Shown: one piece after another, positions 1 through 12,033 of the stretch
Numbering within the stretch: position 1 is the first letter of the stretch
Layout: each line of letters starts with the position of its first letter
From: a virus
Reading direction: 5' to 3' (one strand)
Virus record (IMG/VR): IMGVR_UViG_3300042898_002099
DNA length: 64,000 bases
Notes under the pieces: generated by a model
What the model saw: only the letters and a program-made list of their open reading frames with translations
Database searches by the model: none
What the model was told of the DNA's origin: nothing
Translations under genes and position numbers: made by a program

Positions 1-79
1 AAGGATTTATCGTCATTCTGCGTCTCGAATATTAAATTATATAATATTTATACCTAAGTATATTAGGTAAAACGAAGAC

Positions 80-102
80 AAAAAAAGGGCGCCGAAGCGC
101 CC
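80..102 (-). terminator. Intrinsic terminator with UUCG tetraloop
   Basis: Minus strand GGGCGC-TTCG-GCGCCC-TTTTTTT downstream of the 122..547 ORF. Confidence 0.9.
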
Positions 103-121
103 TGAAAGGAAAATATATGAA

Positions 122-547: not shown

Positions 548-576
548 TTATTTCTCCGCTATGTTTGTTATTATAA

Positions 577-1008: not shown

Positions 1009-1035
1009 TTATTACTCCAACTATGTTTGATATAT

Positions 1036-1043
1036 TATTTATA
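1036..1043 (-). promoter_or_regulatory. T4-type late promoter TATAAATA
   Basis: Exact gp55 consensus upstream of 577..1008. Confidence 0.8.
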
Positions 1044-1140
1044 ATAAAACATAATTAGATGTCATTAGATCCGCTTACGCCTTACGGAAGCACTTCTTTA
1101 GCATTGCGCCAAAAGGTAGGGAGAGTGCTCGAGAAGAATT

Positions 1141-1392
1141 TTAGGCTCGGCTAAATGCTTCTTTGCCCATCATGGCGTAGGCGGCAGCTACCATTTTGCG
1201 GCTAGGTGTACCGAGACGGTAAGCAGACTTGCCGTTCTTAGTAACGTTAGTGTAAACAGCGTAACCTTCTGAACGAAGTTCGCTGATACGAGGACGAATG
1301 CTGTCCTCAGAAGTGCCAGTTAAACCAGCGAGTTGAGCAGGCGTAAATTGACGACCGGACTCAAGAACTTTCAAAACACGGTTTTTCAACAT
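1141..1392 (-). CDS. Winged helix-turn-helix DNA-binding protein
   Basis: FTPAQLAGLTGTSEDSIRPRISELRSEGY HTH pattern followed by a beta wing. Confidence 0.7.
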   Translation of the reverse strand: MLKNRVLKVLESGRQFTPAQLAGLTGTSEDSIRPRISELRSEGYAVYTNVTKNGKSAYRLGTPSRKMVAAAYAMMGKEAFSRA

Positions 1393-1465
1393 ATGTTATT
1401 TCCATTAAAATATAATCGCATCAAAAAATTTTATAGCAACGGCGATCTTTCACTGCTATAAACAT

Positions 1466-1494
1466 ATTATAATATATTTCTACATTATAATCAA
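1466..1494 (-). promoter_or_regulatory. Sigma70-type early promoter
   Basis: TTGATT-N17-TATAAT. Confidence 0.7.
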
Positions 1495-1502
1495 GCATCA
1501 AG

Positions 1503-1763
1503 TTAACCTTTTCTGTGATGTCTACTCACATGGTTACCTTTAGCAAACTTATACAAATATTCATTTCCAATTTTACCTGATTCAATTTCGGTAAGAGCAG
1601 TTGAAATATTTTTCTTTGCGTCTCCAGATCCTTCTTTCTTTAGTTCTCGAGCTCTTGCGGATGCCACAAGAACTAAATCGTACCGATTACCTAGTTTAAG
1701 TACAGCTGCTTCTGAACTGAGACGTGTACGATCTGAATCGTCTATTGGATTAAATATAGTCAT
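1503..1763 (-). CDS. rpoZ: RNA polymerase omega subunit homolog
   Basis: GNRYDLVLVASARAREL and STALTEIESGKI match the omega motifs NRF/YxLxxxAxxRARxL and ALxEIxxG. Confidence 0.8.
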   Translation of the reverse strand: MTIFNPIDDSDRTRLSSEAAVLKLGNRYDLVLVASARARELKKEGSGDAKKNISTALTEIESGKIGNEYLYKFAKGNHVSRHHRKG

Positions 1764-1776
1764 AGTTTTCTTTAAA

Positions 1777-1853
<77 letters not shown>

Positions 1854-1859
1854 GTATTC

Positions 1860-1988
1860 TTAAATTGTTTCGTAATCTTCTTTGCCTACACCACATTCGG
1901 GGCACAGGAAATCTTCTGGTAACTGATCCCAATTACCTTCAAGTTCTTCATCATGGACATGACCGCATACAATACAAACGTGTTCCAT
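1860..1988 (-). CDS. Rubredoxin (42 aa, not in ORF track)
   Basis: MEHVCIVCGHVHDEELEGNWDQLPEDFLCPECGVGKEDYETI, two CxxC motifs; TAATG overlap with rubrerythrin. Confidence 0.9.
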   Translation of the reverse strand: MEHVCIVCGHVHDEELEGNWDQLPEDFLCPECGVGKEDYETI

Positions 1989-2428
1989 TATAGACTCTCC
2001 AATACTTGTTGATATGCCGCAGCATGACGTTGCTCAACTTTTTGCAGAGCAGCAAAACGCTTTTCAGCTTTAATCAATACTGCTTTAAATTGTTCCGCAT
2101 GTTCTTTACTTTCAGCAATCTGGTCTTTGTACTCAGTTGCTTCTTGTTCGCTCTTTGCACTTGCTAAGAATTCTGGATACATTGTAGTAAACTCATATGT
2201 CTCACCTTCAATTGCTTTTTCAAGACATTCTTTGGTAGAGGGTTTACCAATCAACAATTCCAAATGACCCCATGCATGAAGCAATTCTTGGTCAGCAGTA
2301 TGCCAAAAATGTTTGGCAATTTCTTCATAACCTTCTTCACGGGCAATCTTCGCAAAATAGCGATACTTGATATGCGCCATGCTTTCTCCTGCGAATGCAC
2401 TTTCTAAATTTTTAATAGTAACTGACAT
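1988..2428 (-). CDS. Rubrerythrin (ferritin-like di-iron protein)
   Basis: NLESAFAGESMAHIKY, ExxH motifs, EGETYEFTTMYP. Confidence 0.9.
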   Translation of the reverse strand: MSVTIKNLESAFAGESMAHIKYRYFAKIAREEGYEEIAKHFWHTADQELLHAWGHLELLIGKPSTKECLEKAIEGETYEFTTMYPEFLASAKSEQEATEYKDQIAESKEHAEQFKAVLIKAEKRFAALQKVEQRHAAAYQQVLESL

Positions 2429-2445
2429 TTTTGTTTCCTTTAAAT

Positions 2446-2530
2446 TGGTACCTGGAACCGGAATCGAACCGGTACACCTTTCGGCGAGAGATTTTAAGTC
2501 TCTTGTGTCTACCTATTTCACCATCCAGGC
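2446..2530 (-). tRNA. tRNA-Leu(TAA)
   Basis: Cloverleaf with long variable arm, CCA. Confidence 0.95.
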
Positions 2531-2537
2531 ATATCTC

Positions 2538-2566
2538 ATTATAATATAATATAGCGTTCTTGTCAA
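2538..2566 (-). promoter_or_regulatory. Sigma70-type early promoter
   Basis: TTGACA-N17-TATAAT. Confidence 0.8.
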
Positions 2567-2569
2567 ATG

Positions 2570-2848
2570 CTATTCATCCGAAACGTGATCTGCGATAAAT
2601 TCTCGATTCTTCAAAAAACGATTTTCATAATCTTTTCTACTCTTTTCAACATCAAAATTACTAACCATATTAGTTTTTATAACATCAAACAAAGCATGTT
2701 TAATTTTATTGGTAATACGTTTACTAAAATCTTCTAATACAATATCTCTATCCTCACCTTTGGCCAAACGCTGTAATGCGACACCCCGTTCAAATTGGTC
2801 AATACGTTCCAACCAATCCTCATAAGATTCAGTTTCAAGCTTTCGCAT
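2570..2848 (-). CDS. Standalone glutamyl-tRNA reductase (HemA) dimerisation-domain-like protein
   Basis: ERGVALQRLAKGEDRDIVLEDFSKRITNKIKH resembles the HemA C-terminal LxKGEDxxxVLExxSxxLTNKxxH; start moved to the ATG of MRKLE. Confidence 0.6.
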   Translation of the reverse strand: MRKLETESYEDWLERIDQFERGVALQRLAKGEDRDIVLEDFSKRITNKIKHALFDVIKTNMVSNFDVEKSRKDYENRFLKNREFIADHVSDE

Positions 2849-3386
2849 TTTTGAATCCCACAGATCCACCTTCTTTTTCTATTCGTTTAATGACATCTTC
2901 AAATAGAATAGGTCTAAAATCTGTTTGTTCTACGCAAACGCAATGATATCTAGTATCAATATTTCCGTTATACAATACTCGCCTTTGATGTGTGTGTCCG
3001 TGAATGTTAGTACCAAACCTACTCAACGAATCTGGATGCAAAGGTATGTGACTTAGAATCATACCATTCATTACATGATATGCTCGTAATTCTCTAAAAT
3101 GTTCTCGGTAGTCTTCGTCTTTGAAAATATCGTGATTGCCACGAATCAAGACTTTGTCGCCATTTAACCTGCTCATTATGCTTAGTGCTTTGCGGTTAAT
3201 GACAACATCGCCCAAGTGATATACTTTATCGTTGGGTCTTACTGTTTCATTCCAGCGCCGTACCATTTCTTCATCCATCTCCTCTGGACTAGTCCATGGG
3301 CGAATCTTTTCACCGTCGTCTCCGGTAAATACGCAAACACCTAAGTGTCCGAAATGTGTATCGCTTGTTAAAAATACTGCTGGCAT
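2835..3386 (-). CDS. Calcineurin-like metallophosphoesterase
   Basis: SDTHFGH, HLGD, GNHD and HGHTH motifs. Confidence 0.9.
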   Translation of the reverse strand: MPAVFLTSDTHFGHLGVCVFTGDDGEKIRPWTSPEEMDEEMVRRWNETVRPNDKVYHLGDVVINRKALSIMSRLNGDKVLIRGNHDIFKDEDYREHFRELRAYHVMNGMILSHIPLHPDSLSRFGTNIHGHTHQRRVLYNGNIDTRYHCVCVEQTDFRPILFEDVIKRIEKEGGSVGFKNAKA

Positions 3387-3401
3387 GATTTTAAAAATTA
3401 A

Positions 3402-3475
3402 TGGAGCGGGGTGGGGGAATTGAACCCCCGACTTTAGCTTGGAAGGCTAAGGTAATACCATTTTACGAACCCCGC
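3402..3475 (-). tRNA. tRNA-Gly(TCC)
   Basis: Cloverleaf, CCA. Confidence 0.95.
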
Positions 3476-3480
3476 ATTAT

Positions 3481-3556
3481 TGGTGCCCCCTGTCCGACTC
3501 GAACAGACCACCTACTGATTACAAATCAGTTGCTCTACCGGATGAGCTAAGGGGGC
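3481..3556 (-). tRNA. tRNA-Thr(TGT)
   Basis: Cloverleaf, CCA. Confidence 0.95.
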
Positions 3557-3562
3557 ATTATC

Positions 3563-4039
3563 TTATGCAACCATTGCTAAAACTTCTTTCAATCTGTCTG
3601 CCGCATAACTTGCAGCAAACGCATTTGGTTTAACCATTGGCACAACATTACAAGTACCTTTTATATATCCAACTGCCTGTTGAATCACTACAGAACTATT
3701 ATAACATTCTTTTGGATTAATGTCAAGATGAATTTGAACTTCTTTATCACCAACAACATCCAGTATTTTATGATACAATTCTGCAACCTTATATACTTCA
3801 GTCATTAGACGCATAGAAGGTTTACTGCTCTTAGCATCATAATCAATTTCGGTTTGAACCTCACCAAAGATTTTACAACCATGGCGACCATTGATGTGTA
3901 CTACAATAGCAAGAGTATAATCAGCATACCATTTTTCATTACGTCTATAGCGTTCAGAATCTGCACCAATATAAATTTTAGTATCAGGTCCTTGTGCTTC
4001 AATAAACGCTTTTACTTCTGCAATATCTATCTTTTTCAT
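3563..4039 (-). CDS. RNase H-like protein (YkuK/DUF458 family)
   Basis: IYIGADS, RLMTEV, IHLDIN, KPNAFAASYAAD; start set at MKKID because the longer ORF runs through tRNA-Gly. Confidence 0.8.
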   Translation of the reverse strand: MKKIDIAEVKAFIEAQGPDTKIYIGADSERYRRNEKWYADYTLAIVVHINGRHGCKIFGEVQTEIDYDAKSSKPSMRLMTEVYKVAELYHKILDVVGDKEVQIHLDINPKECYNSSVVIQQAVGYIKGTCNVVPMVKPNAFAASYAADRLKEVLAMVA

Positions 4040-4051
4040 AATACACCTTAA

Positions 4052-4125
4052 TGGAGCGGGTAGCGAGAATCGAACTCGCATGTTAACCTTGGCAAGGTTA
4101 CAGGTTACCATTACATCATACCCGC
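4052..4125 (-). tRNA. tRNA-Gly(GCC)
   Basis: Cloverleaf, CCA. Confidence 0.95.
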
Positions 4126-4136
4126 ATTGTTTATAT

Positions 4137-4165
4137 ATTATAACATCTTTTTACTTAAATGTCAA
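4137..4165 (-). promoter_or_regulatory. Sigma70-type early promoter
   Basis: TTGACA-N17-TATAAT with extended TG. Confidence 0.8.
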
Positions 4166-4168
4166 ATC

Positions 4169-4242
4169 TGGCACCCCCTCAAGGATTCGAACCTTGACCA
4201 ACGGTTTTGGAGACCGGTATGCTGCCATTACACTAAGGAGAT
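4169..4242 (-). tRNA. tRNA-Trp(CCA)
   Basis: Cloverleaf, CCA. Confidence 0.9.
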
Positions 4243-4268
4243 AAATAAAAGAACTACCGGCAATTAAC

Positions 4269-4850
4269 ATGAATCCATATGAAGTATTAGATGTTCCAAT
4301 AGATGCAAGCACAGAAGAAATTCGACAACGATATCGAACTCTTGCACAACTTCACCATCCTGATAAAGGTGGCGATGAAGAACTATTTAAACAAATAAAA
4401 CTAGCATATGAAATACTAAGTGATCCTTTACGAAGAAAGGACTTTGATCGAACAGGTAATGTTAATGCTAAAATTGATGTTCGAAATGAAGCATTAGATC
4501 ACATTGCCCAAATGTTATTTAGAATTGTTCCGAGTTTTAATCCAGAACAAGACGATTTAATCTTTCTTATGAAGAAAGAAGTTACTACAATTAAAACAGA
4601 TATGAATAATAATATTAATGTCTGTAATAGGCATTTAACTAATCTTGAAAAAGTAATACAACGATTAAAGATTAAAACTGATAATGAGAACTTGTTATTG
4701 CGGTTTGTTGAAAAACAAATAGAACAACGTAAACAAGAACACTCTAGCTTTATTCGTAGAATTGAAATTTGTGATATTGTTTTTGATATTCTAAACGACT
4801 ATGCTTACGGTTTACAAGAACTAGCGTTTAATGCTGGTGGTTCTAGTTAG
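4269..4850 (+). CDS. J-domain (DnaJ-like) protein
   Basis: NPYEVLDV...HHPDKGG...AYEILSDP. Confidence 0.9.
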   Translation: MNPYEVLDVPIDASTEEIRQRYRTLAQLHHPDKGGDEELFKQIKLAYEILSDPLRRKDFDRTGNVNAKIDVRNEALDHIAQMLFRIVPSFNPEQDDLIFLMKKEVTTIKTDMNNNINVCNRHLTNLEKVIQRLKIKTDNENLLLRFVEKQIEQRKQEHSSFIRRIEICDIVFDILNDYAYGLQELAFNAGGSS

Positions 4851-4909
4851 AGTCGAACTAACACTTGACAGCGTATGAAGCTGGTGCACTACCATTATGC
4901 TATAGAACC
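4835..4909 (-). tRNA. tRNA-Met(CAT), elongator type
   Basis: Cloverleaf, loop TTCATAC, CCA. Confidence 0.85.
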
Positions 4910-4911
4910 GT

Positions 4912-5003
4912 TGGTACCTCGGCCGAGAATCGAACTCGGATGAACCAATTATCTGTTGCTTACGGGATATAAATCCGCCGTTTTACCGTTAAACTACCGA
5001 GGT
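4912..5003 (-). tRNA. tRNA-Ile(TAT) with long variable region
   Basis: Perfect acceptor, D and T arms; loop TTTATAT; about 22 nt variable region. Confidence 0.7.
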
Positions 5004-5007
5004 ATGT

Positions 5008-5439
5008 TTATGCGTACTCGTAATTTACCGTGTCTATATTTTGACGGAAAATTGTAGCGCCATTTTTCAAATGAAATCGTTTTGCCATTTCAGTTGGTGG
5101 GCTTAGAGTAACAAATCTCTTTATACTTGGTCGTGTACTTATTATATTTTCTCTCGCTTTAAATATAAGATCGCGACCAGCACCAGGAGTGTAACTCCAT
5201 ATGGTGTAGAATATAACTGTATCGGGTTCGGCTGATTTAGAAAAAAGCTCTGCACAAGTAGTAGGTATGCTATCCATATAGGCAACACACACAACTGCTT
5301 GGGGCTTTTCATCTTTGAGGAGTATTAAGACTTCCCTGTTTTCGGTGATACGAAAGTCTACGGGAATCTCAGGGCGGACAGGATCGTCTTCAATTAGTCG
5401 AAGAAAAGGATCATCTAAATTTTTTGGTTTGTATATCAT
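5008..5439 (-). CDS. Hypothetical protein, GNAT-like
   Basis: FYTIWSY..GAGRDLI..VTLSP..AKRFHLKNGA resembles the GNAT fold; TATAAATA upstream at 5462-5469. Confidence 0.55.
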   Translation of the reverse strand: MIYKPKNLDDPFLRLIEDDPVRPEIPVDFRITENREVLILLKDEKPQAVVCVAYMDSIPTTCAELFSKSAEPDTVIFYTIWSYTPGAGRDLIFKARENIISTRPSIKRFVTLSPPTEMAKRFHLKNGATIFRQNIDTVNYEYA

Positions 5440-5510
5440 GATTAAGTCCTGTTGTCAATAATATTTATATAGATTACTGACAATTTTTTGCGGTAATCAA
5501 ACTTTATTTT

Positions 5511-5600
5511 TGGTGGAGAGCCTGGGAATCGAACCCAGTGAGCGTATTACTACACTCTACAGATTAGCAATCTGCTGCATTACCGTCCTGCCCGCTCTCC
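5511..5600 (-). tRNA. tRNA-Ser(GCT)
   Basis: Cloverleaf with long variable arm, CCA. Confidence 0.95.
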
Positions 5601-5604
5601 AAAA

Positions 5605-5844
5605 TCAATCCATGTCTTGTTCAAGTTTCTTTTCTTGAAATGTTTTTTCTTTCCAGACTTTTCTTGGATTAGCACACATAACACAATTTGGATCACCGCA
5701 ATTCATAGCGTGATGCTTGGCAAATTTGTGTGGCTCTTTTACTTCAATGCCATATGCTTTAGCAATTTTTGTTTGCCGTATAACAGCACTATTTTCTTTT
5801 AATAAACGCTTGCTATGTTTAAAACGATGCTCTTCATTTGACAT
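5605..5844 (-). CDS. Hypothetical basic protein with CxxxxCxxC motif
   Basis: HHAMNCGDPNCVMCANPRK. Confidence 0.7.
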   Translation of the reverse strand: MSNEEHRFKHSKRLLKENSAVIRQTKIAKAYGIEVKEPHKFAKHHAMNCGDPNCVMCANPRKVWKEKTFQEKKLEQDMD

Positions 5845-5871
5845 AAACTAACCCTTCAAAAAAATTATTTA

Positions 5872-5959
5872 TGGCGGAAGCGGTGAGATTCGAACTCACG
5901 GTACCTTTCGATACGCTAGTTTTCAAGACTAGAGCCATAGACCGCTCGACCACACTTCC
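5872..5959 (-). tRNA. tRNA-Ser(TGA)
   Basis: Cloverleaf with long variable arm, CCA. Confidence 0.95.
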
Positions 5960-5964
5960 ATATT

Positions 5965-6020
5965 AGGTGTAGGGTTTCCACCTACTCCCACCTCGCTTTA
6001 AAGTCTGCGTGTCCAAGACT
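5965..6020 (-). ncRNA. Small structured inter-tRNA RNA (putative)
   Basis: AGTCT/AGACT stem with possible CGC/GCG pseudoknot, then GTAGG/CCTAC hairpin. Confidence 0.4.
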
Positions 6021-6027
6021 CGTTGAT

Positions 6028-6107
6028 TGGCGGGTGGGAGTGAGAGTCGAACTCACATTACGCGGCATATACATCCCCGTTTCTAACCAATTGAAATATC
6101 CCAACCC
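6028..6107 (-). ncRNA. tRNA-like RNA with aberrant anticodon arm
   Basis: Canonical D arm, T arm and CCA; extended bulged acceptor stem; anticodon stem poorly paired. Confidence 0.6.
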
Positions 6108-6108
6108 A

Positions 6109-6183
6109 TGGGGAGAAGTACGGGGATCGAACCCGTGATAGCGGAATCACAACCCGCGGTTTTACCACTAAACTAACGACTCC
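6109..6183 (-). tRNA. tRNA-His(GTG)
   Basis: G-1 and C73; two acceptor-stem mismatches. Confidence 0.9.
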
Positions 6184-6189
6184 ATAAAC

Positions 6190-6266
6190 TGGCCGATCCT
6201 GCAGGACTCGAACCCACAACCTCCGGTTTCGAAGACCGGCACTCTAATCCATTGAGTTAAGGATCG
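6190..6266 (-). tRNA. tRNA-Arg(TCG)
   Basis: Cloverleaf, CCA. Confidence 0.95.
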
Positions 6267-6270
6267 ATAT

Positions 6271-6363
6271 CATATAGAAACACACTATAAAACACCCTGG
6301 TTGTTAAGTGTCACTACTATCCCGGTACCACCTCGGGGTAAGCGTGTAATGTGTTTTTATATG
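6271..6363 (-). ncRNA. Structured inter-tRNA RNA with long closing stem
   Basis: CATATAAAAACACA/TGTGTTTCTATATG closing stem enclosing two hairpins. Confidence 0.6.
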
Positions 6364-6437
6364 GTACGAGTAGGGGGATTCGAACCCACGACCAATAGAT
6401 TAAAAGTCTACTGCTCTACCAACTGAGCTATACTCGC
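6362..6437 (-). tRNA. tRNA-Lys(TTT)
   Basis: Cloverleaf, CCA. Confidence 0.95.
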
Positions 6438-6548
6438 ATTAATTTGGCGTCGCAATGCTTTGTTGCTTTTGCGATGCTCACCCGCTCTTCTAAATAAAGC
6501 CAATGCAACGAAGCGGTTACGTTGCTTGACGATCATCTTATGTCTCAT
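6408..6548 (-). CDS. Small basic protein (46 aa) whose ORF runs into tRNA-Lys
   Basis: MRHKMIVKQRNRFVALALFRRAGEHRKSNKALRRQINASIAQLVEQ; AGGAG SD and its own promoter. Confidence 0.7.
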   Translation of the reverse strand: MRHKMIVKQRNRFVALALFRRAGEHRKSNKALRRQINASIAQLVEQ

Positions 6549-6567
6549 TTTTATCTCCTAATATACT

Positions 6568-6596
6568 ATTATAACATCTTTTAGTATCCGAGTCAA
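6568..6596 (-). promoter_or_regulatory. Sigma70-type early promoter
   Basis: TTGACT-N17-TATAAT with extended TG. Confidence 0.8.
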
Positions 6597-6609
6597 ATGC
6601 TCGGGTATT

Positions 6610-6683
6610 TGGCAGAGGGTACAAGAATCGAACTTGTGATCTCGGAATCAAAATCCGATGTTATACCATTTAACTAACCCCCA
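6610..6683 (-). tRNA. tRNA-Gln(TTG)
   Basis: Cloverleaf, CCA. Confidence 0.9.
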
Positions 6684-6689
6684 ACATAT

Positions 6690-6764
6690 TGGTCCGGCGA
6701 CCAGGAATCGAACCTGGATTGATAGCTTAGAAGGCTACTGTTCTATCCATTGAACTACCACCAG
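6690..6764 (-). tRNA. tRNA-Arg(TCT)
   Basis: Cloverleaf, CCA. Confidence 0.95.
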
Positions 6765-6771
6765 ATAAAAA

Positions 6772-7035
6772 TTATTCTTCTACTGCAAGAATATCTTTTT
6801 CAGATATAACACCTAAATATTGGTCACCGTCTTTAACGACTTTAGCATTTGACCAAATCAAATACACGACATCGTCGACTTTAACTTCAGTTACATCTGG
6901 ACCGACAGCAAGAACCGTTGCAGTCTTTGTACTGTTATCTGATTTTGCTTTACCTAAGTAAATGCCGCTATCAGTTTCTTCTGGCTTTTCTGTATCAATA
7001 ACTAATACATTATCTCTTAATGGTTTATAATTCAT
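6772..7035 (-). CDS. groES: Co-chaperonin GroES/Cpn10 homolog
   Basis: KPLRDNVLV, ETDSGIYL, VLAVGP, ISEKDILAV. Confidence 0.9.
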   Translation of the reverse strand: MNYKPLRDNVLVIDTEKPEETDSGIYLGKAKSDNSTKTATVLAVGPDVTEVKVDDVVYLIWSNAKVVKDGDQYLGVISEKDILAVEE

Positions 7036-7051
7036 ATGCACTTTCAAAAAA

Positions 7052-7126
7052 TGGTACCTGGTGACAGTTTCGAACTGCCGACCCGCTGCGTGTAAAGCAG
7101 CCGCTCTACCCCTGAGCTAACCAGGC
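7052..7126 (-). tRNA. tRNA-Val(TAC)
   Basis: Cloverleaf, CCA. Confidence 0.95.
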
Positions 7127-7128
7127 GT

Positions 7129-7213
7129 TGGTGGAGGTGACAGGGATCGAACCTGTTGTGACATAAGTCGGCGGATTTACAGTCCGCTGCCATACCATTA
7201 CGGCGGCACCTCC
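7129..7213 (-). tRNA. tRNA-Tyr(GTA)
   Basis: Cloverleaf with long variable arm, CCA. Confidence 0.95.
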
Positions 7214-7217
7214 ATTG

Positions 7218-7293
7218 TGGCTCCCCGACCTGGGCTCGAACCAGGGACCTGCGGATTAACAGTCCGTCGCTCTACCGACTGAGCTATCAGGGA
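7218..7293 (-). tRNA. tRNA-Asn(GTT)
   Basis: Cloverleaf, CCA. Confidence 0.95.
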
Positions 7294-7298
7294 ATATT

Positions 7299-7469
7299 TT
7301 ATGCTACTTTAGCAATTGCTTCTCGCACATCTCGCAAGAGAGCATCGTCATCCCAAATAAGTTCTGTGCGACCATCAGGGTGTGTTATTACAGTTAGATG
7401 CGAACCGATGACAACTGTAGGTTCATCTTTTGCCTTTGCCTGTGCAACTTGTTTCTTGCGGCTTGCCAT
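7299..7469 (-). CDS. Hypothetical protein (56 aa, not in ORF track)
   Basis: MASRKKQVAQAKAKDEPTVVIGSHLTVITHPDGRTELIWDDDALLRDVREAIAKVA fills the gap exactly. Confidence 0.7.
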   Translation of the reverse strand: MASRKKQVAQAKAKDEPTVVIGSHLTVITHPDGRTELIWDDDALLRDVREAIAKVA

Positions 7470-7471
7470 GC

Positions 7472-7666
7472 TTAAGCCTTAGTTTTTGCTTCTGCTCTAG
7501 CGTTCTTTTCTGCAGTGATTTCATTGCGTCTGGCTTTGACAGCCTTTGACAATTCACCTAGTGCTTTACGGGCACGTGTTCCTGCGGCACTATTGCCTTT
7601 TTCAAACTTCTCGTTCTCTGCTAAATATGCATCGAGGTTTGTTTTAATATCTTCATTAGCACTCAT
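7472..7666 (-). CDS. Histone H1-like Hc1 family protein
   Basis: KFEKGNSAAGTRARKALGELSK motif. Confidence 0.8.
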   Translation of the reverse strand: MSANEDIKTNLDAYLAENEKFEKGNSAAGTRARKALGELSKAVKARRNEITAEKNARAEAKTKA

Positions 7667-7686
7667 TTTATTTCCTTTTTAAAAAA

Positions 7687-7763
7687 TGGTCGGAGTAGAG
7701 AGGTTCGAACTCCCGACCCCCTGGTCCCAAACCAGGTGCGCTACCAGACTGCGCTATACTCCG
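7687..7763 (-). tRNA. tRNA-Pro(TGG)
   Basis: Cloverleaf, CCA. Confidence 0.95.
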
Positions 7764-7765
7764 TA

Positions 7766-7839
7766 TGGTTGCGGGTCCTGGAATCGAACCAGGATCTAGA
7801 GCTTATGAGACTCTTGAGTTACCGTTTCTCTAACCCGCG
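7766..7839 (-). tRNA. tRNA-fMet(CAT), initiator type
   Basis: C1:A72 mismatch, CGCGGG start. Confidence 0.85.
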
Positions 7840-7848
7840 GTATATTTA

Positions 7849-7924
7849 TGGTGGAGGAGACAGGGATCGAACCTGCGACCTATTGCTTGCAAAGCAACCG
7901 CTCTCCCAACTGAGCTACACCCCC
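7849..7924 (-). tRNA. tRNA-Ala(TGC)
   Basis: G3:U70, CCA. Confidence 0.95.
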
Positions 7925-8018
7925 ATATTGAAACACTCTTGTTCTCCATACCTTCTTAGGGATCAGTCCAAGGTCTTACTTCTCAGAACCTGCGTCCAGT
8001 TTAGAATGCTTCAATATG
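7924..8018 (-). ncRNA. Structured inter-tRNA RNA with long closing stem
   Basis: CATATTGAAGCATTCT/AGAGTGTTTCAATATG closing stem, related to 6271..6363. Confidence 0.6.
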
Positions 8019-8092
8019 GTGCCCAGGGCGAGACTCGAACTCGCAAAATTTGGCTTCTAAGACCAACACGTATACCATTCCATCACCTGGGC
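8017..8092 (-). tRNA. tRNA-Leu(TAG), short variable loop
   Basis: Leu-type D arm, anticodon TAG, 76 nt. Confidence 0.85.
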
Positions 8093-8094
8093 AA

Positions 8095-8299
8095 TGCTCT
8101 ACATCCTCCGGCGGTAATTATAGTACATCCAAATATGACGCTATCATATTCTTCATTCGTACCCTCCACCCGCTCCCCGCGAGGACTGCTCTCGTGTTGC
8201 CAACGGCCTTTTGGTAAAAAGACTACCACCCTTGAGTGACGAACTCACTTCGCTTCGTACGGGTCATACTATCCAGACGTTACTCCGGCGGGTTTTAGA
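8095..8299 (-). ncRNA. About 200 nt multi-stem non-coding RNA (unassigned)
   Basis: GC-rich non-coding stretch with several hairpins and an ACCCGC/GCGGGT long-range pairing. Confidence 0.6.
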
Positions 8300-8371
8300 A
8301 TGGTTGGTCCCACTTTGAGGTGCCATTTAACTTAGACTTTCTTTATGCATTTATAGACTAAGACCATAACT

Positions 8372-8447
8372 TGGCGGTCTGTAGGGAATTCGAATCCCTG
8401 CTACAAGCGTGACAGGCTTGCGTGCTTACCGCTAACACTAACAGACC
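8372..8447 (-). tRNA. tRNA-Asp(GTC)
   Basis: Cloverleaf, CCA. Confidence 0.95.
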
Positions 8448-8457
8448 AAAAACTTTT

Positions 8458-8652
8458 TAATCGGGGATCTAAGCATATTTCACAAGACCGTCTCTTGTGC
8501 TGTTTGCTTCGACATTACAGGCCTACATACTCCAGCGTGACCACCGTATCAACCTTGCGGCTTCGTTTCCATCTTTCGTGTAATATAAAAGCTCTAATCC
8601 GTCGACTAGACCTACTTGTTATATTACCTACTGGTGCGGGTAACCCCGATTA
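8458..8652 (-). ncRNA. About 195 nt structured non-coding RNA (unassigned)
   Basis: TAATCGGGG/CCCCGATTA terminal stem, internal stems, dedicated promoter immediately upstream. Confidence 0.65.
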
Positions 8653-8661
8653 ATTAAATTA

Positions 8662-8690
8662 ATTATAACATCTTAACACACTTGTGTCAA
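8662..8690 (-). promoter_or_regulatory. Sigma70-type early promoter
   Basis: TTGACA-N17-TATAAT with extended TG. Confidence 0.8.
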
Positions 8691-8698
8691 GCATTATT

Positions 8699-8776
8699 TG
8701 GAACCTAGAGTCAGATTCGAACTGACGATTTTACGGATTTGCAATCCGTTGCATTTGACCTCTCTGCCATCTAGGC
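8699..8776 (-). tRNA. tRNA-Cys(GCA)
   Basis: Cloverleaf, U73, CCA. Confidence 0.9.
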
Positions 8777-8814
8777 GTACCATTGTTTTGTACACTTAGT
8801 AATATATAAAACAA

Positions 8815-8890
8815 TGGCGTCCCGTACCAGATTCGAACTGGTGTACTCACCGTGAAAGGGTGATGTCCTAGGCCTCTAGACGAACGGGAC
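8815..8890 (-). tRNA. tRNA-Glu(TTC)
   Basis: Cloverleaf, CCA. Confidence 0.95.
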
Positions 8891-8893
8891 AAT

Positions 8894-8967
8894 TGGTATC
8901 CAGTAGAGGTAACGCTCCTCTGTCTTTCGATTATCAGTCGAATGCTCTACTATTGAGCTAACCGGAT
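8894..8967 (-). tRNA. tRNA-Ile(GAT) with non-canonical D and T loops
   Basis: All stems pair; T loop is AGCGTTA and the D loop lacks GG. Confidence 0.8.
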
Positions 8968-8982
8968 ACAATGGTATGCTAA

Positions 8983-8995
8983 TTTTATAAAGAAC
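8983..8995 (-). promoter_or_regulatory. boxA-like antitermination element
   Basis: GTTCTTTATAAAA after a leader hairpin, just before the first tRNA. Confidence 0.55.
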
Positions 8996-9025
8996 TTAGC
9001 TTAAATAACGATCTATTTAAACTAT

Positions 9026-9054
9026 ATTATAACATCTTTTAGTACCCTTGTCAA
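9026..9054 (-). promoter_or_regulatory. Sigma70 promoter P2 of the tRNA array
   Basis: TTGACA-N17-TATAAT with extended TG. Confidence 0.85.
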
Positions 9055-9110
9055 GCAAAGGGTTTCTTTAAAATTCCTCAAACTTTAGACAACGATCTAT
9101 CTAAAAAACA

Positions 9111-9139
9111 ATTATAACACCTTTTAGTATCCTTGTCAA
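9111..9139 (-). promoter_or_regulatory. Sigma70 promoter P1 of the tRNA array (tandem duplicate of P2)
   Basis: TTGACA-N17-TATAAT; about 65 bp imperfect direct repeat with the P2 unit. Confidence 0.85.
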
Positions 9140-9154
9140 ATAAAGGGTTACTAC

Positions 9155-9192
9155 AAAGGAAAACCCTCGGACTTTAGGGGTACCGAGGGTTT
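9155..9192 (-). terminator. Intrinsic terminator, putative attenuator 3:4 stem
   Basis: AAACCCTCGG-N12-CCGAGGGTTT-TCCTTT. Confidence 0.8.
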
Positions 9193-9218
9193 GTAAGATA
9201 TTTAATATGAACTAATCT

Positions 9219-9317
9219 TTAACCCTCGTCTAAACTCCATGAATTTGTACGTGCAATAACCCCTGGCTGTTCGCCATAAGAAGTTTCACATATAATAGGG
9301 TGATTAATTTTTAACAT
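9219..9317 (-). CDS. Putative leaderless attenuator leader peptide (32 aa, not in ORF track)
   Basis: MLKINHPIICETSYGEQPGVIARTNSWSLDEG; ATG follows TATAAATA after a 6 nt spacer; 3' end complementary to the terminator 5' arm. Confidence 0.65.
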   Translation of the reverse strand: MLKINHPIICETSYGEQPGVIARTNSWSLDEG

Positions 9318-9323
9318 ATAAAA

Positions 9324-9331
9324 TATTTATA
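9324..9331 (-). promoter_or_regulatory. T4-type late promoter TATAAATA
   Basis: Exact consensus, intergenic. Confidence 0.8.
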
Positions 9332-9344
9332 TAACTTGAGGCGA

Positions 9345-10130
9345 TTATAAATCATCTCTTAAAGATTTATTTGATTTAATTGCAGCATTTAGAACAGATA
9401 ATGTTACACCTTGTTCTTCTGCAAATTTAGATAATGCCGCAGTATCTTTAGGGAAACACATTCCGCCAAATCCCATTTTGCCATCTGGACCTGGTACTTG
9501 CATATGGCTTCTACCAATTCGATTATCTACTTTAACTAAATCCATTACAGTATCAAAATTACAATTAGTTTTATTTGCCAATGCAAATATCTCATTCATG
9601 AATGAAACCTTTGTCGCAAGGAAAGTATTAATAGTATACTTTGCCAATGCCGCTTCACCGATAGTACAATATGCAACAACACTAAGACACGGTTGACCTA
9701 AACGAATTAGGCGTTCTGCTTCTCTTTGATATGCAGGTATGTTACCACCAATAAACGCAAATTTTCCATCTATATAATCTTGTTCCGCTTTTGCTTCAGT
9801 TAAAAACTCTGGCGAATGTACTAGGTTAGGATATTTTGCACTTAACTTAGTATATACATCAATAGGCGCCGTAGACTTACTAATGATTACACCCTTGTAA
9901 CCTTTTAGCTTATCTAATACAGATAGCAAAATGCTAGTATCACATTTACCATCCGCACTTTGAGGGGTGGGTGTACAAATGAACACTCCATCACACTCAA
10001 ACAAATCTTCATAGGTATGCGTTCCCTTTTCAGGATCACTATCTACAATATACAGAATTGCTTCGGGCGCAGTCGCATTTGCAATCGCACCGCCTACAAT
10101 ACCTTTACCTATAATACCCACCTTGGGCAT
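9345..10130 (-). CDS. ugd: UDP-glucose/GDP-mannose 6-dehydrogenase family protein
   Basis: GxGxVG, ISKST, SPEFL, GFGGMCFPKD. Confidence 0.9.
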   Translation of the reverse strand: MPKVGIIGKGIVGGAIANATAPEAILYIVDSDPEKGTHTYEDLFECDGVFICTPTPQSADGKCDTSILLSVLDKLKGYKGVIISKSTAPIDVYTKLSAKYPNLVHSPEFLTEAKAEQDYIDGKFAFIGGNIPAYQREAERLIRLGQPCLSVVAYCTIGEAALAKYTINTFLATKVSFMNEIFALANKTNCNFDTVMDLVKVDNRIGRSHMQVPGPDGKMGFGGMCFPKDTAALSKFAEEQGVTLSVLNAAIKSNKSLRDDL

Positions 10131-10227
10131 AGTATAACTACTTTTCATCTTAACCTAATCCTTATAATTCTAAAGGCAATGCTGCCCGCCTGATACATAT
10201 TGACCATTGGGCAGCAAGCCCTCTAAA

Positions 10228-10632
10228 TTACAGTGGTGCGTCAGCAAGTTCTTTGATCTCTTCGATTTCGAGATCATCCTCAACCACAGGCTTTGCAACT
10301 TTTGCGATCTTTGCTGTAGTTTGAGCAACTGCCTTGACCGGTGTAGCTTTAACCTTTGTAGCTTTAACTACTTTAGCCTTAGTCGGCGTACCCTCTTTCT
10401 TAGCCATCGTTTCAATGATAAGTTCTGTGTAGGGAACAAAGACACCACCTGCATCTAGAAGATGCTGACAAGCCTCAGCCTTTGTCATTGCCTTGGGCAA
10501 TTCGATAAGCTCGACCAAAGAGGTGTGTGTACCTTTAGACAAAATCTTAGTACGAGTAACAATGTCGTTTGCGAAACGAACCTTGGTTACACCATAGTGA
10601 GTAGAAACACCTGCAACTGTAAATTTAGACAT
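10228..10632 (-). CDS. Hypothetical protein with Lys/Ala-rich tail
   Basis: ORF with SD and a sigma70 promoter at 10689-10717. Confidence 0.75.
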   Translation of the reverse strand: MSKFTVAGVSTHYGVTKVRFANDIVTRTKILSKGTHTSLVELIELPKAMTKAEACQHLLDAGGVFVPYTELIIETMAKKEGTPTKAKVVKATKVKATPVKAVAQTTAKIAKVAKPVVEDDLEIEEIKELADAPL

Positions 10633-10742
10633 AATCAATCCTTAAATAATATAAACAAAATCACCAAGAACAACCGTTCTCATAGTCTATTATATAGCCT
10701 TTTGCTACACCTGTCAAGCATAAAGTTTGCGCTGTTGTTCTT

Positions 10743-11111
10743 TCACAACACCGTTTTAACTTTATTGACATGCCTACAAGTCCTTCGGAATTGGAAACCG
10801 ACGCAATCGCAAGTAACAAATCCTTCGAACGAAATAACATTGTATGTCTTTCCGTTTGATTTTGATTTGACTTTGAACAATCGTTCGAGGGTCCTTTTAT
10901 CCGAAAATTCATGACCAACAATAAATCTTTTATTGATATGAGAAACGGGATACATTGGGTTGCCAGTATGAACAGACACATAGTCACTATCTAACCACTT
11001 TGGATTCGGTACAACTTTACCCTCAAAGGTATTGATGTCGAACTCTTGTCCAAGTATGTTAGATCGCCATTTTGTAGTAATTGCTACGGATGACCCTACT
11101 GAAAAATTCAT
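10743..11111 (-). CDS. SWIM-type zinc finger protein
   Basis: TCDCVGFQFRRTCRH; promoter at 11135-11163. Confidence 0.75.
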   Translation of the reverse strand: MNFSVGSSVAITTKWRSNILGQEFDINTFEGKVVPNPKWLDSDYVSVHTGNPMYPVSHINKRFIVGHEFSDKRTLERLFKVKSKSNGKTYNVISFEGFVTCDCVGFQFRRTCRHVNKVKTVL

Positions 11112-11251
11112 ACTGTTTTCCTCATTGTTCCTTTATTATAATACCTTTTGGATCAGTTGTCAAGCCTTTTTTGTTCTTTTCAGCCAAAATAATACCCCAG
11201 ATTATGGGGTATTATCAGATTAATATTAATGATTATCTAATTGATTATCTA

Positions 11252-11434
11252 TTATTGATCTTTTGATTTTCGAATTTCGTCATCGTCGGTTATTTCTATT
11301 ATTCCCTTATCCTCAAAAAAGCCAACTGTATCGGATATTCCTTTTTGATATCCATATGCTTTACACGCAAAGCAGGCAAGTAACATTAAAACAATTTGAA
11401 TAACATCATATAAAGTAAAGGTAACTTGTTCCAT
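11252..11434 (-). CDS. Small membrane protein
   Basis: One hydrophobic helix, AGGAG SD. Confidence 0.65.
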   Translation of the reverse strand: MEQVTFTLYDVIQIVLMLLACFACKAYGYQKGISDTVGFFEDKGIIEITDDDEIRKSKDQ

Positions 11435-11468
11435 TACTACTCCTTATAATTAAGATTGAACTACATGA

Positions 11469-11996
11469 TTAAGTCTTCCACTCATCCAATTCATCGTCTG
11501 TTTCATACACGAACCAATCCTGTTGTTTCTGTCTAAGATTTTTAAACTGATCGTGTTCTATTAAAAATTTTGCAACTAGACTATTCTCTAAACCATATGC
11601 CTCAATTTCCCAAGGCTGGTCCCAGTAAGAATGATCTTCTTGGTATGTTTCCCCTCTCCAAATAGTTACATAGTTTCTTCTTAAATACCTATCTTTCATC
11701 TCGCCTGTTGCCCATTGTTTTAAATGAACCATTTCGTGAGCAAGAATTGTGAACATATGTATTTTCTTTTTTGTTCTGCCAATGTCAATATTAAAACATC
11801 TAGGAGATACGTTAGTATCTTCATCCATCTCGCAGAATCCACCGGCATTGATTTGTCCTCTTTCTCTTATTCTAACCTGTACAGTTATATTTTTAGACAA
11901 TTGCGGTGACAGTAATTTATCAGCATATGAATTTGCTGCCAACTTTAGCATCTTTGTTAGTTGACTATCTTTAGCTCCTCGTACACTAACTATCAT
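11469..11996 (-). CDS. Zincin-type metallopeptidase
   Basis: AHEMVHLKQ and QPWEIEA. Confidence 0.8.
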   Translation of the reverse strand: MIVSVRGAKDSQLTKMLKLAANSYADKLLSPQLSKNITVQVRIRERGQINAGGFCEMDEDTNVSPRCFNIDIGRTKKKIHMFTILAHEMVHLKQWATGEMKDRYLRRNYVTIWRGETYQEDHSYWDQPWEIEAYGLENSLVAKFLIEHDQFKNLRQKQQDWFVYETDDELDEWKT

Positions 11997-12033
11997 ATGA
12001 TTACCTTTCTGATAATTTACAATATTATTTATG

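What the first reader, a model, noticed from the sequence alone, without database searches (positions are those of the whole stretch)
9155..9331. Pan-amino-acid attenuator: a late, leaderless 19-amino-acid sensor peptide gating the tRNA array
Seen on the minus strand: (1) TATAAATA at 9331-9324, then 6 nt, then ATG with no SD, so the mRNA is probably leaderless. (2) A 32-codon ORF, MLKINHPIICETSYGEQPGVIARTNSWSLDEG, that uses 27 different codons and 19 amino acids; only Phe is absent. (3) The 26 downstream tRNAs cover exactly those 19 amino acids and also lack Phe. (4) The last codons (CGAGGGTT, 9228-9221) are complementary to AACCCTCG (9191-9184), the 5' arm of the terminator AAACCCTCGG/CCGAGGGTTT-TCCTTT; an inner AAGAT/ATCTT stem extends this alternative fold. 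Established: this is the 2:3 antiterminator versus 3:4 terminator logic of trp/his attenuators, which normally carry runs of one amino acid. Inference: a ribosome reaching the stop masks segment 2 and transcription terminates, while stalling at almost any codon permits read-through into the tRNA genes. That would give on-demand late tRNA supply when any charged tRNA runs short, for example in starvation or after host anticodon-nuclease defence. Caveat: stalls in the last few codons (Trp, Asp) would still mask segment 2.
Basis: partly seen in the sequence, partly recalled or inferred. Interest (0 to 1): 0.92.

Follow-up and report, generated by a model that had tools for sequence, protein, structure and literature searches.

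The report
All-amino-acid leader gating phage tRNAs
Just upstream of its 27-gene tRNA array, this uncultured T4-like phage carries a tiny late-expressed gene that uses nearly every amino acid once and is wired to a switchable transcription stop, so the phage can probably make extra tRNAs whenever ribosomes decode slowly; I found no published account of this control for tRNA genes.

Summary
All four observations hold at the stated coordinates. The reading as a leader-peptide attenuator is supported by comparison, not by experiment.

- **Conservation:** about 25 sequence variants of the cassette (late promoter, 30-41-codon ORF, terminator) exist. Every one sits directly before a tRNA array, whatever gene lies upstream.
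- **Amino-acid diversity:** every variant holds 19 or 20 different amino acids. The chance for a 32-mer is 0.9% for at least 19 and 0.06% for 20. Residues that are the only copy of their amino acid resist substitution.
- **Phe link:** the window lacks tRNA-Phe and its peptide lacks Phe. A sister lineage has both.
- **RNA switch:** the last codons pair with the terminator's 5' arm (8 bp, P about 0.005). This holds in most clades but not in one.
- **Other phages:** in 56 other arrays, unrelated small ORFs show the same three traits together.

Caveats:
- Two consensus promoters lie between the terminator and the first tRNA, so only late and read-through transcription is gated.
- Formal covariation for the antiterminator is inconclusive.
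- Nothing has been tested at the bench.

Earlier AI notes of this scan report the same class on other phage DNA. I found no paper describing it.

The parts
9324..9331 (-). T4-type late promoter box TATAAATA, 6 nt before the ATG (mRNA leaderless or nearly so)
   Evidence: Nine of the 10 copies of this octamer in the window are intergenic, and 7 sit 22-60 nt before long ORFs. The box is conserved in 18 of 20 related versions while the flanks diverge.
9219..9317 (-). Leader ORF: 32 codons plus TAA, 19 different amino acids, no Phe
   Evidence: Homologues hold 19-20 amino acids. pN/pS is below 1. Singleton residues are protected from substitution. No Pfam or PHROG family matches, and no confident fold is predicted.
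9297..9309 (-). Candidate segment 1 (codons 3-7), which pairs with segment 2 in the free-RNA minimum-energy fold
   Evidence: A similar pairing of codons about 4-10 with the ORF end recurs in several relatives. This rests on folding prediction only.
9221..9228 (-). Segment 2: CGAGGGTT, the last codons plus the first base of the stop codon
   Evidence: It is the exact complement of 9191-9184. P = 0.0055 against shuffles. It is paired with segment 3 in the truncated-transcript fold.
9195..9219 (-). Spacer with inner stem AAGAT/ATCTT that extends the antiterminator
   Evidence: Relatives carry different inner stems at the same place: TGTA/TACA, GTTAAG/CTTAAC, GTTAG/CTAGC.
9183..9192 (-). Segment 3: 5' arm of the terminator
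9171..9182 (-). 12-nt terminator loop, almost invariant across the family
   Evidence: The reason for its conservation is unexplained.
9152..9170 (-). Segment 4: 3' arm CCGAGGGTTT followed by a T-rich tail interrupted by CC
   Evidence: The isolated hairpin folds at -16.1 kcal/mol and the antiterminator at -13.8 kcal/mol.
9026..9139 (-). Tandem consensus sigma-70-type promoters P1 and P2 (12 of 12 matches, extended -10), downstream of the terminator
   Evidence: Conserved in relatives.
1777..8967 (-). tRNA array (27 genes by ARAGORN, 19 amino acids, no Phe), starting with tRNA-Ile(GAT) at 8967-8894
   Evidence: tRNA-Phe is missing from its syntenic slot between His and Ser.
9345..10148 (-). 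Upstream UDP-glucose dehydrogenase-like gene. It is an accessory neighbour, not part of the cassette.
   Evidence: Relatives carry other genes at this position.

Best explanation
This is a ribosome-mediated (leader-peptide) transcription attenuator placed in front of the phage tRNA array. Its leader uses nearly every amino acid about once instead of a run of one amino acid.

Proposed mechanism:
1. A T4-type late promoter starts an mRNA that begins at or next to the AUG.
2. A ribosome translates the 32 codons while RNA polymerase moves on.
3. If decoding is fast, the ribosome reaches the stop codon and covers segment 2 (9228-9221). Segments 3 and 4 then form the terminator, and a transcript of about 170 nt ends at about 9155.
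4. If decoding is slow because any aminoacyl-tRNA is short, segment 2 stays free and pairs with segment 3. The terminator cannot form, and the late transcript runs on into the tRNA genes.

The element would therefore be a negative-feedback sensor of overall decoding capacity. It would add late tRNA synthesis on top of the constitutive early promoters P1 and P2.

Shown here:
- the sequence parts and their conservation;
- the extreme and maintained amino-acid diversity;
- purifying selection on the ORF;
- the complementarity between the ORF end and the terminator arm;
- the fixed position before tRNA arrays;
- recurrence of the same design in unrelated sequences.

Inferred:
- promoter timing and a leaderless start, from knowledge of T4 late promoters;
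- actual termination and stall-dependent read-through;
- the physiological trigger, such as tRNA depletion by host shut-off or anticodon nucleases.
For: 1. **Cassette position.** The cassette is conserved in about 25 variants and always lies directly before tRNA-Ile(GAT), the first gene of the array. The upstream gene varies between the UGDH-like gene and at least three other genes.
2. **Diversity.** All variants hold 19-20 different amino acids in 30-41 residues (P0005-P0007). The background rates are 0.9% and 0.06%.
   - With the conserved core held fixed, every clade still exceeds expectation: 19-20 observed against 16.6-17.9 expected.
   - His, Tyr, Asp, Val and Lys sit at different positions in different clades.
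   - Differences between close relatives avoid residues that are the only copy of their amino acid: 3 of 54 against 165 of 584, Fisher 2e-5.
3. **Translation.** The ORF is translated: indels are in frame and pN/pS is about 0.2-0.9.
4. **Switch.**
   - The terminator is 97% paired with a compensatory AU/CG pair.
   - The ORF end pairs with the 5' arm in 19 of 20 truncated folds. Against shuffles, P is 0.03-0.06 in five clades and 0.0055 in the window.
   - GGG/CCC/GGG changes to GG/CC/GG together in segments 2, 3 and 4.
   - The spacing from stop codon to hairpin core is held at 26-33 nt.
5. **Phe.** The window and L021 lack both tRNA-Phe and Phe codons. The sister lineage L046 has tRNA-Phe and two new Phe codons.
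6. **Generality.**
   - An all-20 small ORF lies within 700 nt upstream (sense strand) of 13 of 56 other phage tRNA arrays. The rates elsewhere are 0 of 56 antisense, 1 of 80 further upstream and 46 of 2664 tiles overall.
   - These ORFs belong to several unrelated sequence families. Twelve of 14 carry an 8-12 bp complement between the ORF end and the terminator arm, with P of 0.0055 or less.
   - Picking ORFs by RNA architecture alone returns 19 hits. All lie before tRNAs and 79% have at least 19 amino acids. Among controls the figures are 17% and 17%.
   - In L063 and L132 no promoter lies between the terminator and the first tRNA.
7. **Late promoter.** TATAAATA behaves as a late promoter in this genome.
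Against: - Two perfect promoters sit between the terminator and the array. The array does not depend on read-through here.
- The T-tract after the hairpin is interrupted (TTTTCCTTT) and the loop is long (12 nt), so terminator efficiency is unknown.
- In the clade of L026, L030, L034, L035, L040 and L041, segment 2 is only 4-5 bp and no better than shuffles.
- On the MAFFT alignment the antiterminator shows no covariation above shuffles.
- Equilibrium folds with a 30-nt ribosome footprint give the antiterminator only for stalls at codons 5 and 10. Stalls at codon 15 and later give the terminator, because codons 3-7 can pair with segment 2.
- One codon per amino acid should be a weaker sensor than the codon runs of classical leaders.
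- The match between peptide and tRNA set is not strict. The L044 peptide lacks Val and the L046 peptide lacks His, although those tRNAs are present.
- Codon choice adds nothing beyond amino-acid diversity.
- The whole genome is not held, so a tRNA-Phe elsewhere cannot be excluded.
- There are no transcript or ribosome data.
Confidence: 0.66

Rival explanations
1. The ORF is an ordinary late microprotein gene with its own intrinsic terminator. The terminator merely insulates late and upstream transcription from the separately promoted tRNA array. On this view the amino-acid diversity and the complementarity with the terminator arm have no regulatory meaning.
For: - P1 and P2 drive the array independently.
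- The peptide has invariant residues (M1, C10, G15, A22, R23) and pN/pS below 1.
- Formal antiterminator covariation is lacking.
- One clade has a weak segment 2.
Against: - This view gives no reason for 19-20 amino acids in every variant, or for the relocation of His, Tyr, Asp, Val and Lys between clades.
- Protection of singleton residues explains the conservation without needing a folded protein.
- No fold is predicted (pLDDT 57) and no family matches.
- Unrelated peptides in front of other tRNA arrays share diversity, terminator complement and position.
Confidence: 0.12
2. The element is an attenuator, but it reports general ribosome availability or translation stress rather than the supply of individual aminoacyl-tRNAs. 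Host shut-off, ribosome-targeting toxins or antibiotics would be examples of such stress. This would resemble the BmrB leader of bmrCD or the antibiotic-sensing leaders of resistance genes.
For: - The same RNA architecture applies.
- A leaderless start makes initiation depend on free 70S ribosomes (inference).
- Codon choice shows no tuning beyond amino-acid content.
- BmrB-type attenuation is documented (PMC4191407).
Against: - A sensor of ribosome availability would not need every amino acid. Yet diversity is maintained by selection in several unrelated families.
- The regulated genes are tRNAs.
- Phe codons and tRNA-Phe are lost and kept together.
Confidence: 0.15
3. The terminated leader RNA of about 170 nt is itself the product. 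It would act in trans as a small RNA or dual-function RNA, as rnTrpL does, and its nearly invariant 12-nt loop would be the functional site.
For: - The terminator loop is almost invariant across relatives whose neighbouring protein gene is only 62-74% identical.
- Attenuator-derived sRNAs are known (PMC6614838).
Against: - No target was sought or found.
- The loop differs in L047 and in the other families.
- This reading does not explain the amino-acid diversity.
- It could coexist with attenuation.
Confidence: 0.05

Closest known systems
trp operon attenuator (trpL) of enterobacteria
   Same: It has a short translated leader and four RNA segments with 1:2, 2:3 (antiterminator) and 3:4 (terminator) pairings. 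A ribosome at the stop codon masks segment 2, and a stalled ribosome permits read-through.
   Different: There are no tandem regulatory codons; about one codon is present for each of 19-20 amino acids. The regulated genes are tRNAs, not biosynthetic enzymes. The promoter is a phage late promoter and the mRNA is probably leaderless. Segment 1 is only a folding prediction here.
Multivalent leader-peptide attenuators (ilvGMEDA leader for Ile/Leu/Val; thr leader for Thr/Ile)
   Same: One leader integrates the supply of more than one aminoacyl-tRNA.
   Different: Those leaders sense two or three amino acids through clustered codons. This one spans nearly all twenty with mostly single codons, and selection keeps each amino acid represented.
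BmrB leader of bmrCD in Bacillus subtilis and antibiotic-sensing leader attenuators (PMC4191407)
   Same: Ribosome-mediated attenuation that reports translation efficiency in general rather than one amino acid.
   Different: Those systems respond to drug-stalled ribosomes and control transporters or resistance genes. No requirement for amino-acid diversity is known for them.
T-box riboswitches
   Same: The purpose is the same: to read tRNA charging status and adjust genes of the decoding machinery through a terminator/antiterminator choice.
   Different: T-boxes bind one uncharged tRNA directly and need no translation. No T-box or other Rfam family matches here.
Leader-peptide attenuators before phage tRNA blocks reported in earlier AI notes of this scan
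   Same: A small test ORF plus a terminator/antiterminator sits in front of tRNA genes of large uncultured phages, and the peptide composition mirrors the tRNAs that follow.
   Different: Those notes describe several cassettes per genome, each matched to a subset of tRNAs. Here one late-promoter cassette with all amino acids heads one whole array, and constitutive promoters follow it. The notes are unchecked by me.

Membership tests
Leader-peptide (ribosome-mediated) transcription attenuators | A short ORF upstream of the regulated genes that is actually translated | tested here: met
   The ORF is conserved in all relatives with in-frame indels. pN/pS is about 0.2-0.9, and pooled synonymous changes are enriched. 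Translation itself was not observed.
Leader-peptide (ribosome-mediated) transcription attenuators | An intrinsic terminator between the leader ORF and the regulated genes | tested here: met
   There is a 10-bp GC-rich stem plus a T-rich tail at 9192-9152. The stem is 97% paired in 21 sequences with one compensatory pair. Termination activity cannot be tested here.
Leader-peptide (ribosome-mediated) transcription attenuators | A mutually exclusive antiterminator formed by an ORF-proximal segment and the terminator 5' arm | tested here: inconclusive
   In the window there are 8 Watson-Crick bp with P = 0.0055. The pairing appears in 19 of 20 truncated folds, and segments 2, 3 and 4 show a three-way matched change. 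However, one clade is at chance level, and there is no covariation above shuffles on the MAFFT alignment.
Leader-peptide (ribosome-mediated) transcription attenuators | Regulatory codons: a cluster or run of codons for the amino acid(s) sensed | tested here: not met
   There is no run. The 32 codons use 27 different codons and 19 amino acids. This is the feature that makes it a variant.
Leader-peptide (ribosome-mediated) transcription attenuators | Read-through rises when the ribosome stalls in the leader | not testable with these tools
   Only constrained folds are available. These give the antiterminator for stalls at codons 5 and 10, and the terminator for a ribosome at the stop codon.
Rfam leader and attenuator families (Trp, His, Leu, Thr leaders, T-box and others) | A match to the covariance model | tested here: not met
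   cmscan of 1-12000 at E up to 0.1 returns only tRNAs and weak plastid-UTR matches that overlap tRNA genes. Nothing matches at 9152-9331.
T4-type late promoters | A TATAAATA box a few bases before the transcript start, in front of late genes | tested here: met
   The box lies at 9331-9324. Nine of 10 boxes in the window are intergenic, and 7 lie 22-60 nt before long ORFs. The box is conserved in 18 of 20 relatives. Relatives carry T4-like UvsX, gp41-like helicase and family B polymerase genes. A gp55-like late sigma factor was not sought.

The most novel reading that the evidence does not exclude
Large phages carry a widespread, previously undescribed class of regulators: leader ORFs that contain all twenty amino acids and time the ribosome against RNA polymerase. 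Any shortage in the aminoacyl-tRNA pool, including tRNA cleavage by host anticodon-nuclease defences, would then switch on transcription of the phage's own tRNA array. The class has arisen or diverged into at least five sequence families that share only this architecture. This window holds the T4-type late-promoter version.
Probability: 0.55. Interest if true: 0.92.

Novelty: new variant of a known kind. Interest (0 to 1): 0.86.

Why it matters
Phage tRNA genes have been known for more than 50 years, and their role is still debated. The proposals include codon compensation, replacement of degraded host tRNAs, and escape from tRNA-cleaving defences (PMC10264068, PMC11555353, PMC11464382). How phages regulate these genes is barely studied.

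A leader that samples every amino acid would show that the phage measures decoding capacity and supplies tRNAs on demand. That would make the 'why tRNAs' question testable with reporters.

It would also extend classical attenuation from one to three amino acids up to the whole set, and from enzyme genes to tRNA genes. The three-part signature gives a simple way to find such controls in metagenomes. The element could also serve as a compact natural biosensor of global translation speed.

Tried and rejected
- **Cultured relatives:** none found. Nucleotide searches of GenBank phage records with the window cassette and with two other families gave nothing.
- **Whole genome:** not held. The nearest record is a 38-kb fragment without tRNAs, so tRNA-Phe elsewhere in the genome cannot be excluded.
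- **Peptide profile searches:** these found only more members of the same small family. The two further weak hits, both long proteins, were not examined.
- **Protein families:** no Pfam or PHROG family matches.
- **Structure:** AlphaFold gave no confident fold, with pLDDT 57.
- **Codon tuning:** rejected. The ORF touches 20 of 24 phage anticodons (P = 0.002 against random windows), but synonymous reshuffling gives the same number.
- **Pairing of codons 25-30 with the terminator loop and 3' arm:** seen in the window fold but not kept in L047 or the L034 clade, so it was dropped.
- **Segment 2 as a Shine-Dalgarno for a start-stop mini-ORF:** several relatives have ATG-TAA or ATG-TAG right after the leader stop. 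The window, L038, L020 and the L034 clade do not, so this was dropped.
- **Distant 354-kb relative:** the region upstream of its array was uninformative because the contig breaks there.
- **Formal antiterminator covariation:** inconclusive on the MAFFT alignment because the helices are out of register. I did not build a covariance model.

Full report
**Observation**

All coordinates are on the minus strand. The UDP-glucose dehydrogenase-like gene (10148..9345) ends, and the sequence that follows contains these parts in order:
- TATAAATA at 9331-9324, then six bases;
- an ATG-started ORF of 32 codons (9317..9219);
- a 26-nt spacer;
- a hairpin with a 10-bp stem and 12-nt loop (9192-9161) and a T-rich tail;
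- two perfect sigma-70-type promoters (9139-9111 and 9054-9026);
- tRNA-Ile(GAT), the first of 27 ARAGORN tRNAs (26 by Rfam).

The ORF uses 27 different codons and 19 amino acids, lacking only Phe. The tRNAs cover the same 19 amino acids. The last eight bases up to the first base of the stop codon (9228-9221) are the exact complement of 9191-9184 in the hairpin's 5' arm. The finding as given to me does not mention the two promoters that follow the terminator.

**Is it more than chance?**

- Of real 32-residue windows from this phage's proteins, 0.9% reach 19 different amino acids and 0.06% reach 20.
- Among 619 small ORFs of 34 codons or fewer in all six frames of the window, this is the only one with 19.
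- An 8-bp Watson-Crick match between the ORF end and the terminator arm arises in 0.55% of shuffles.
- TATAAATA is not over-represented in the window (10 copies against 9.4 expected). Its placement is far from random, though: 9 of 10 copies are intergenic and 7 lie 22-60 nt before long ORFs. This is what is expected of T4-type late promoters.

**Relatives**

I collected loci in three ways: searching IMG/VR with the upstream protein, searching with the hairpin, and searching protein collections with a peptide profile (then 29, 30, 37-39). Together these gave about 25 distinct versions of the cassette from freshwater metagenomes.

- The phages are T4-like. They carry UvsX, a gp41-like helicase and a family B polymerase.
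- The cassette always sits directly before tRNA-Ile(GAT), the first gene of the array. The upstream gene varies between the dehydrogenase-like gene and at least three others.
- The late box is kept in 18 of 20 unique DNA versions. The distance from stop codon to hairpin core is held at 26-33 nt.
- No locus has the hairpin without the ORF.

**The peptide**

- Every version holds 19 or 20 different amino acids in 30-41 residues. More than half hold all 20 (P0005-P0007).
- Only five columns are invariant. His, Tyr, Asp, Val and Lys occupy different columns in different clades.
- With the conserved core held fixed and the rest redrawn from the phage's composition, every clade still lies above expectation: 19-20 observed against 16.6-17.9 expected, P from 0.004 to 0.3.
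- Close pairs give pN/pS of about 0.2-0.9, so the ORF is read as protein.
- Differences between close pairs avoid residues that are the only copy of their amino acid: 3 of 54 states against 165 of 584 positions, Fisher 2e-5.

Selection to keep each amino acid represented explains both the diversity and the apparent sequence conservation. No folded protein is needed, and none is indicated: there is no Pfam or PHROG family and the predicted structure has pLDDT 57.

**Link to the tRNA set**

- Arrays of relatives whose peptides contain Phe carry tRNA-Phe(GAA) between tRNA-His and tRNA-Ser.
- The window and its 93% relative lack that gene at the syntenic slot, and their peptides lack Phe.
- A sister lineage in the same clade (L046) keeps tRNA-Phe, and its peptide has gained Phe at two new positions.
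- This is one evolutionary event, in the predicted direction.
- The match is not strict the other way. The L044 peptide lacks Val and the L046 peptide lacks His, although those tRNAs are present.
- Codon choice adds nothing beyond amino-acid content.

**The RNA switch**

- The terminator helix is 97% paired in 21 sequences and has one compensatory AU/CG pair.
- I folded transcripts truncated before the 3' arm. In 19 of 20 unique versions the ORF end pairs with the 5' arm and encloses a small inner stem. That stem differs between clades: AAGAT/ATCTT, TGTA/TACA, GTTAAG/CTTAAC, GTTAG/CTAGC.
- Where the terminator has CCC/GGG, segment 2 has GGG. Where it has CC/GG, segment 2 has GG, and the reading frame is re-set around it.
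- Against dinucleotide shuffles the pairing has P of about 0.03-0.06 in five clades. In the clade of L026 to L041 it is only 4-5 bp and at chance level.
- On the plain MAFFT alignment, where the helices are out of register, the antiterminator does not exceed shuffles. I rate this feature as inconclusive by formal covariation.
- The isolated hairpins fold at -16.1 kcal/mol (terminator) and -13.8 kcal/mol (antiterminator), as expected if the earlier-made structure acts kinetically.
- With a 30-nt footprint, a ribosome at the stop codon gives the terminator. A ribosome at codon 5 or 10 gives the antiterminator.
- For stalls from codon 15 on, the equilibrium fold pairs codons 3-7 (9309-9297) with segment 2, and the terminator returns.
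- That candidate segment 1 recurs in several relatives. It also leaves open which codons are effectively sensed.

**Generality**

A tRNA D-arm pattern fetched 119 unrelated phage tRNA loci. Fifty-six arrays had at least 300 nt of upstream sequence.

| Region scanned (700 nt) | Regions containing a small ORF with all 20 amino acids |
|---|---|
| Upstream of the first tRNA, sense strand | 13 of 56 |
| Same DNA, antisense strand | 0 of 56 |
| Further upstream | 1 of 80 |
| Downstream of the array | 3 of 55 |
| All tiles | 46 of 2664 |

- The ORFs fall into several families with no sequence similarity to the window's peptide. One family has seven diverged members.
- Twelve of 14 carry an 8-12 bp perfect complement between the ORF's 3' end and the 5' arm of a strong terminator 21-32 nt after the stop codon, each with P of 0.0055 or less.
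- Within the seven-member family, segments 2, 3 and 4 change together (A/T/A to G/C/G).
- Many of these leaders start 6-7 nt after a -10 hexamer. They are therefore leaderless like the window's.
- In L063 and L132 no promoter lies between the terminator and the first tRNA, so there the cassette is the only nearby entry to the array.
- The reverse test is not circular. I picked small ORFs only by RNA architecture, anywhere in about 1 Mb. This returned 19 hits. All are followed by a tRNA within 700 nt, and 79% have at least 19 amino acids. Among controls the figures are 17% and 17%.

**Interpretation**

The best-supported reading is a leader-peptide attenuator that measures overall decoding capacity and admits late transcription into the tRNA array when decoding is slow. 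In this window it can only modulate, because P1 and P2 drive the array without it. The late box suggests that it matters after early promoters decline. That timing is an inference from T4 biology.

The rival readings are a plain microprotein gene, a sensor of ribosome availability, and a trans-acting leader RNA. Each explains less. None accounts for the maintained all-amino-acid content together with the position and the terminator complement.

**Comparison with the known**

- The mechanism is that of trp-type and ilv-type attenuators.
- It fails their defining feature of clustered regulatory codons, and it controls tRNA genes rather than enzyme genes.
- It matches no Rfam family.
- Six full-text searches found no description of leader-peptide control of phage tRNA genes. 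The library is incomplete, so this is not proof of novelty.
- Earlier AI notes of this scan report the same class in other giant phages. I did not check their loci. My support comes from my own loci.

**Verdict**

- It is a new variant of a known kind.
- Interest is high.

Noticed in passing
window 6028-6106 (-): A 79-nt tRNA-like gene is called tRNA-Tyr(GTA) by ARAGORN only and is not reached by the Rfam tRNA model. It appears to have an enlarged anticodon loop. It is nearly identical in L021 and L046, and it lies between tRNA-His and the slot where relatives carry tRNA-Phe.
   Followed up: partly
window 8981-8995 (-), and before the first tRNA in many other loci (e.g. L063, L080, L132): A boxA-like GTTCTTTA(A/T)AAAATT or GATCTTTAACAATT motif lies just upstream of the first tRNA. 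This suggests rrn-style antitermination for the array. Another first-stage note (e1-5837529) covers it.
   Followed up: no
window 5462-5469 (-): A second late-type TATAAATA lies inside the tRNA array, 22 nt before a 144-codon ORF that ends next to tRNA-Ile(TAT). Late transcription may therefore enter the array here too.
   Followed up: no
L057:814-948, L063:6751-6867, L080:6251-6370, L132:996-1133(-), L133:1008-1148(-), L145:1431-1562(-), L164:4261-4362; also L067:8351-8473(-), L141:9548-9667(-), L119:2618-2716, L079:2685-2762, and further hits in L081, L117, L126, L140 (positions): Sequence-unrelated families of 25-46-codon ORFs with 18-20 different amino acids lie before other phage tRNA arrays. 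Each has a terminator whose 5' arm is complementary to the ORF end, and many are leaderless from a sigma-70-type promoter.
   Followed up: partly
L006, L011, L012, L033, L047, L049: the bases right after the leader stop codon: The stop codon overlaps an ATG that is followed at once, or after one codon, by another stop (TGATGTAA, TAATGTAG and similar). This forms a start-stop mini-ORF behind a G-rich stretch. It is absent from the window.
   Followed up: no
window 9171-9182 (-) and relatives: The 12-nt terminator loop is almost invariant across relatives whose neighbouring protein gene is only 62-74% identical. The stem plus loop contains a GGTACC palindrome. No explanation was found.
   Followed up: partly
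window 9345-10148 (-): The UDP-glucose dehydrogenase-like gene is an accessory insert. In L020 and L022 the cassette follows the homologue of the window's 136-residue ORF (10638..10228) directly.
   Followed up: no
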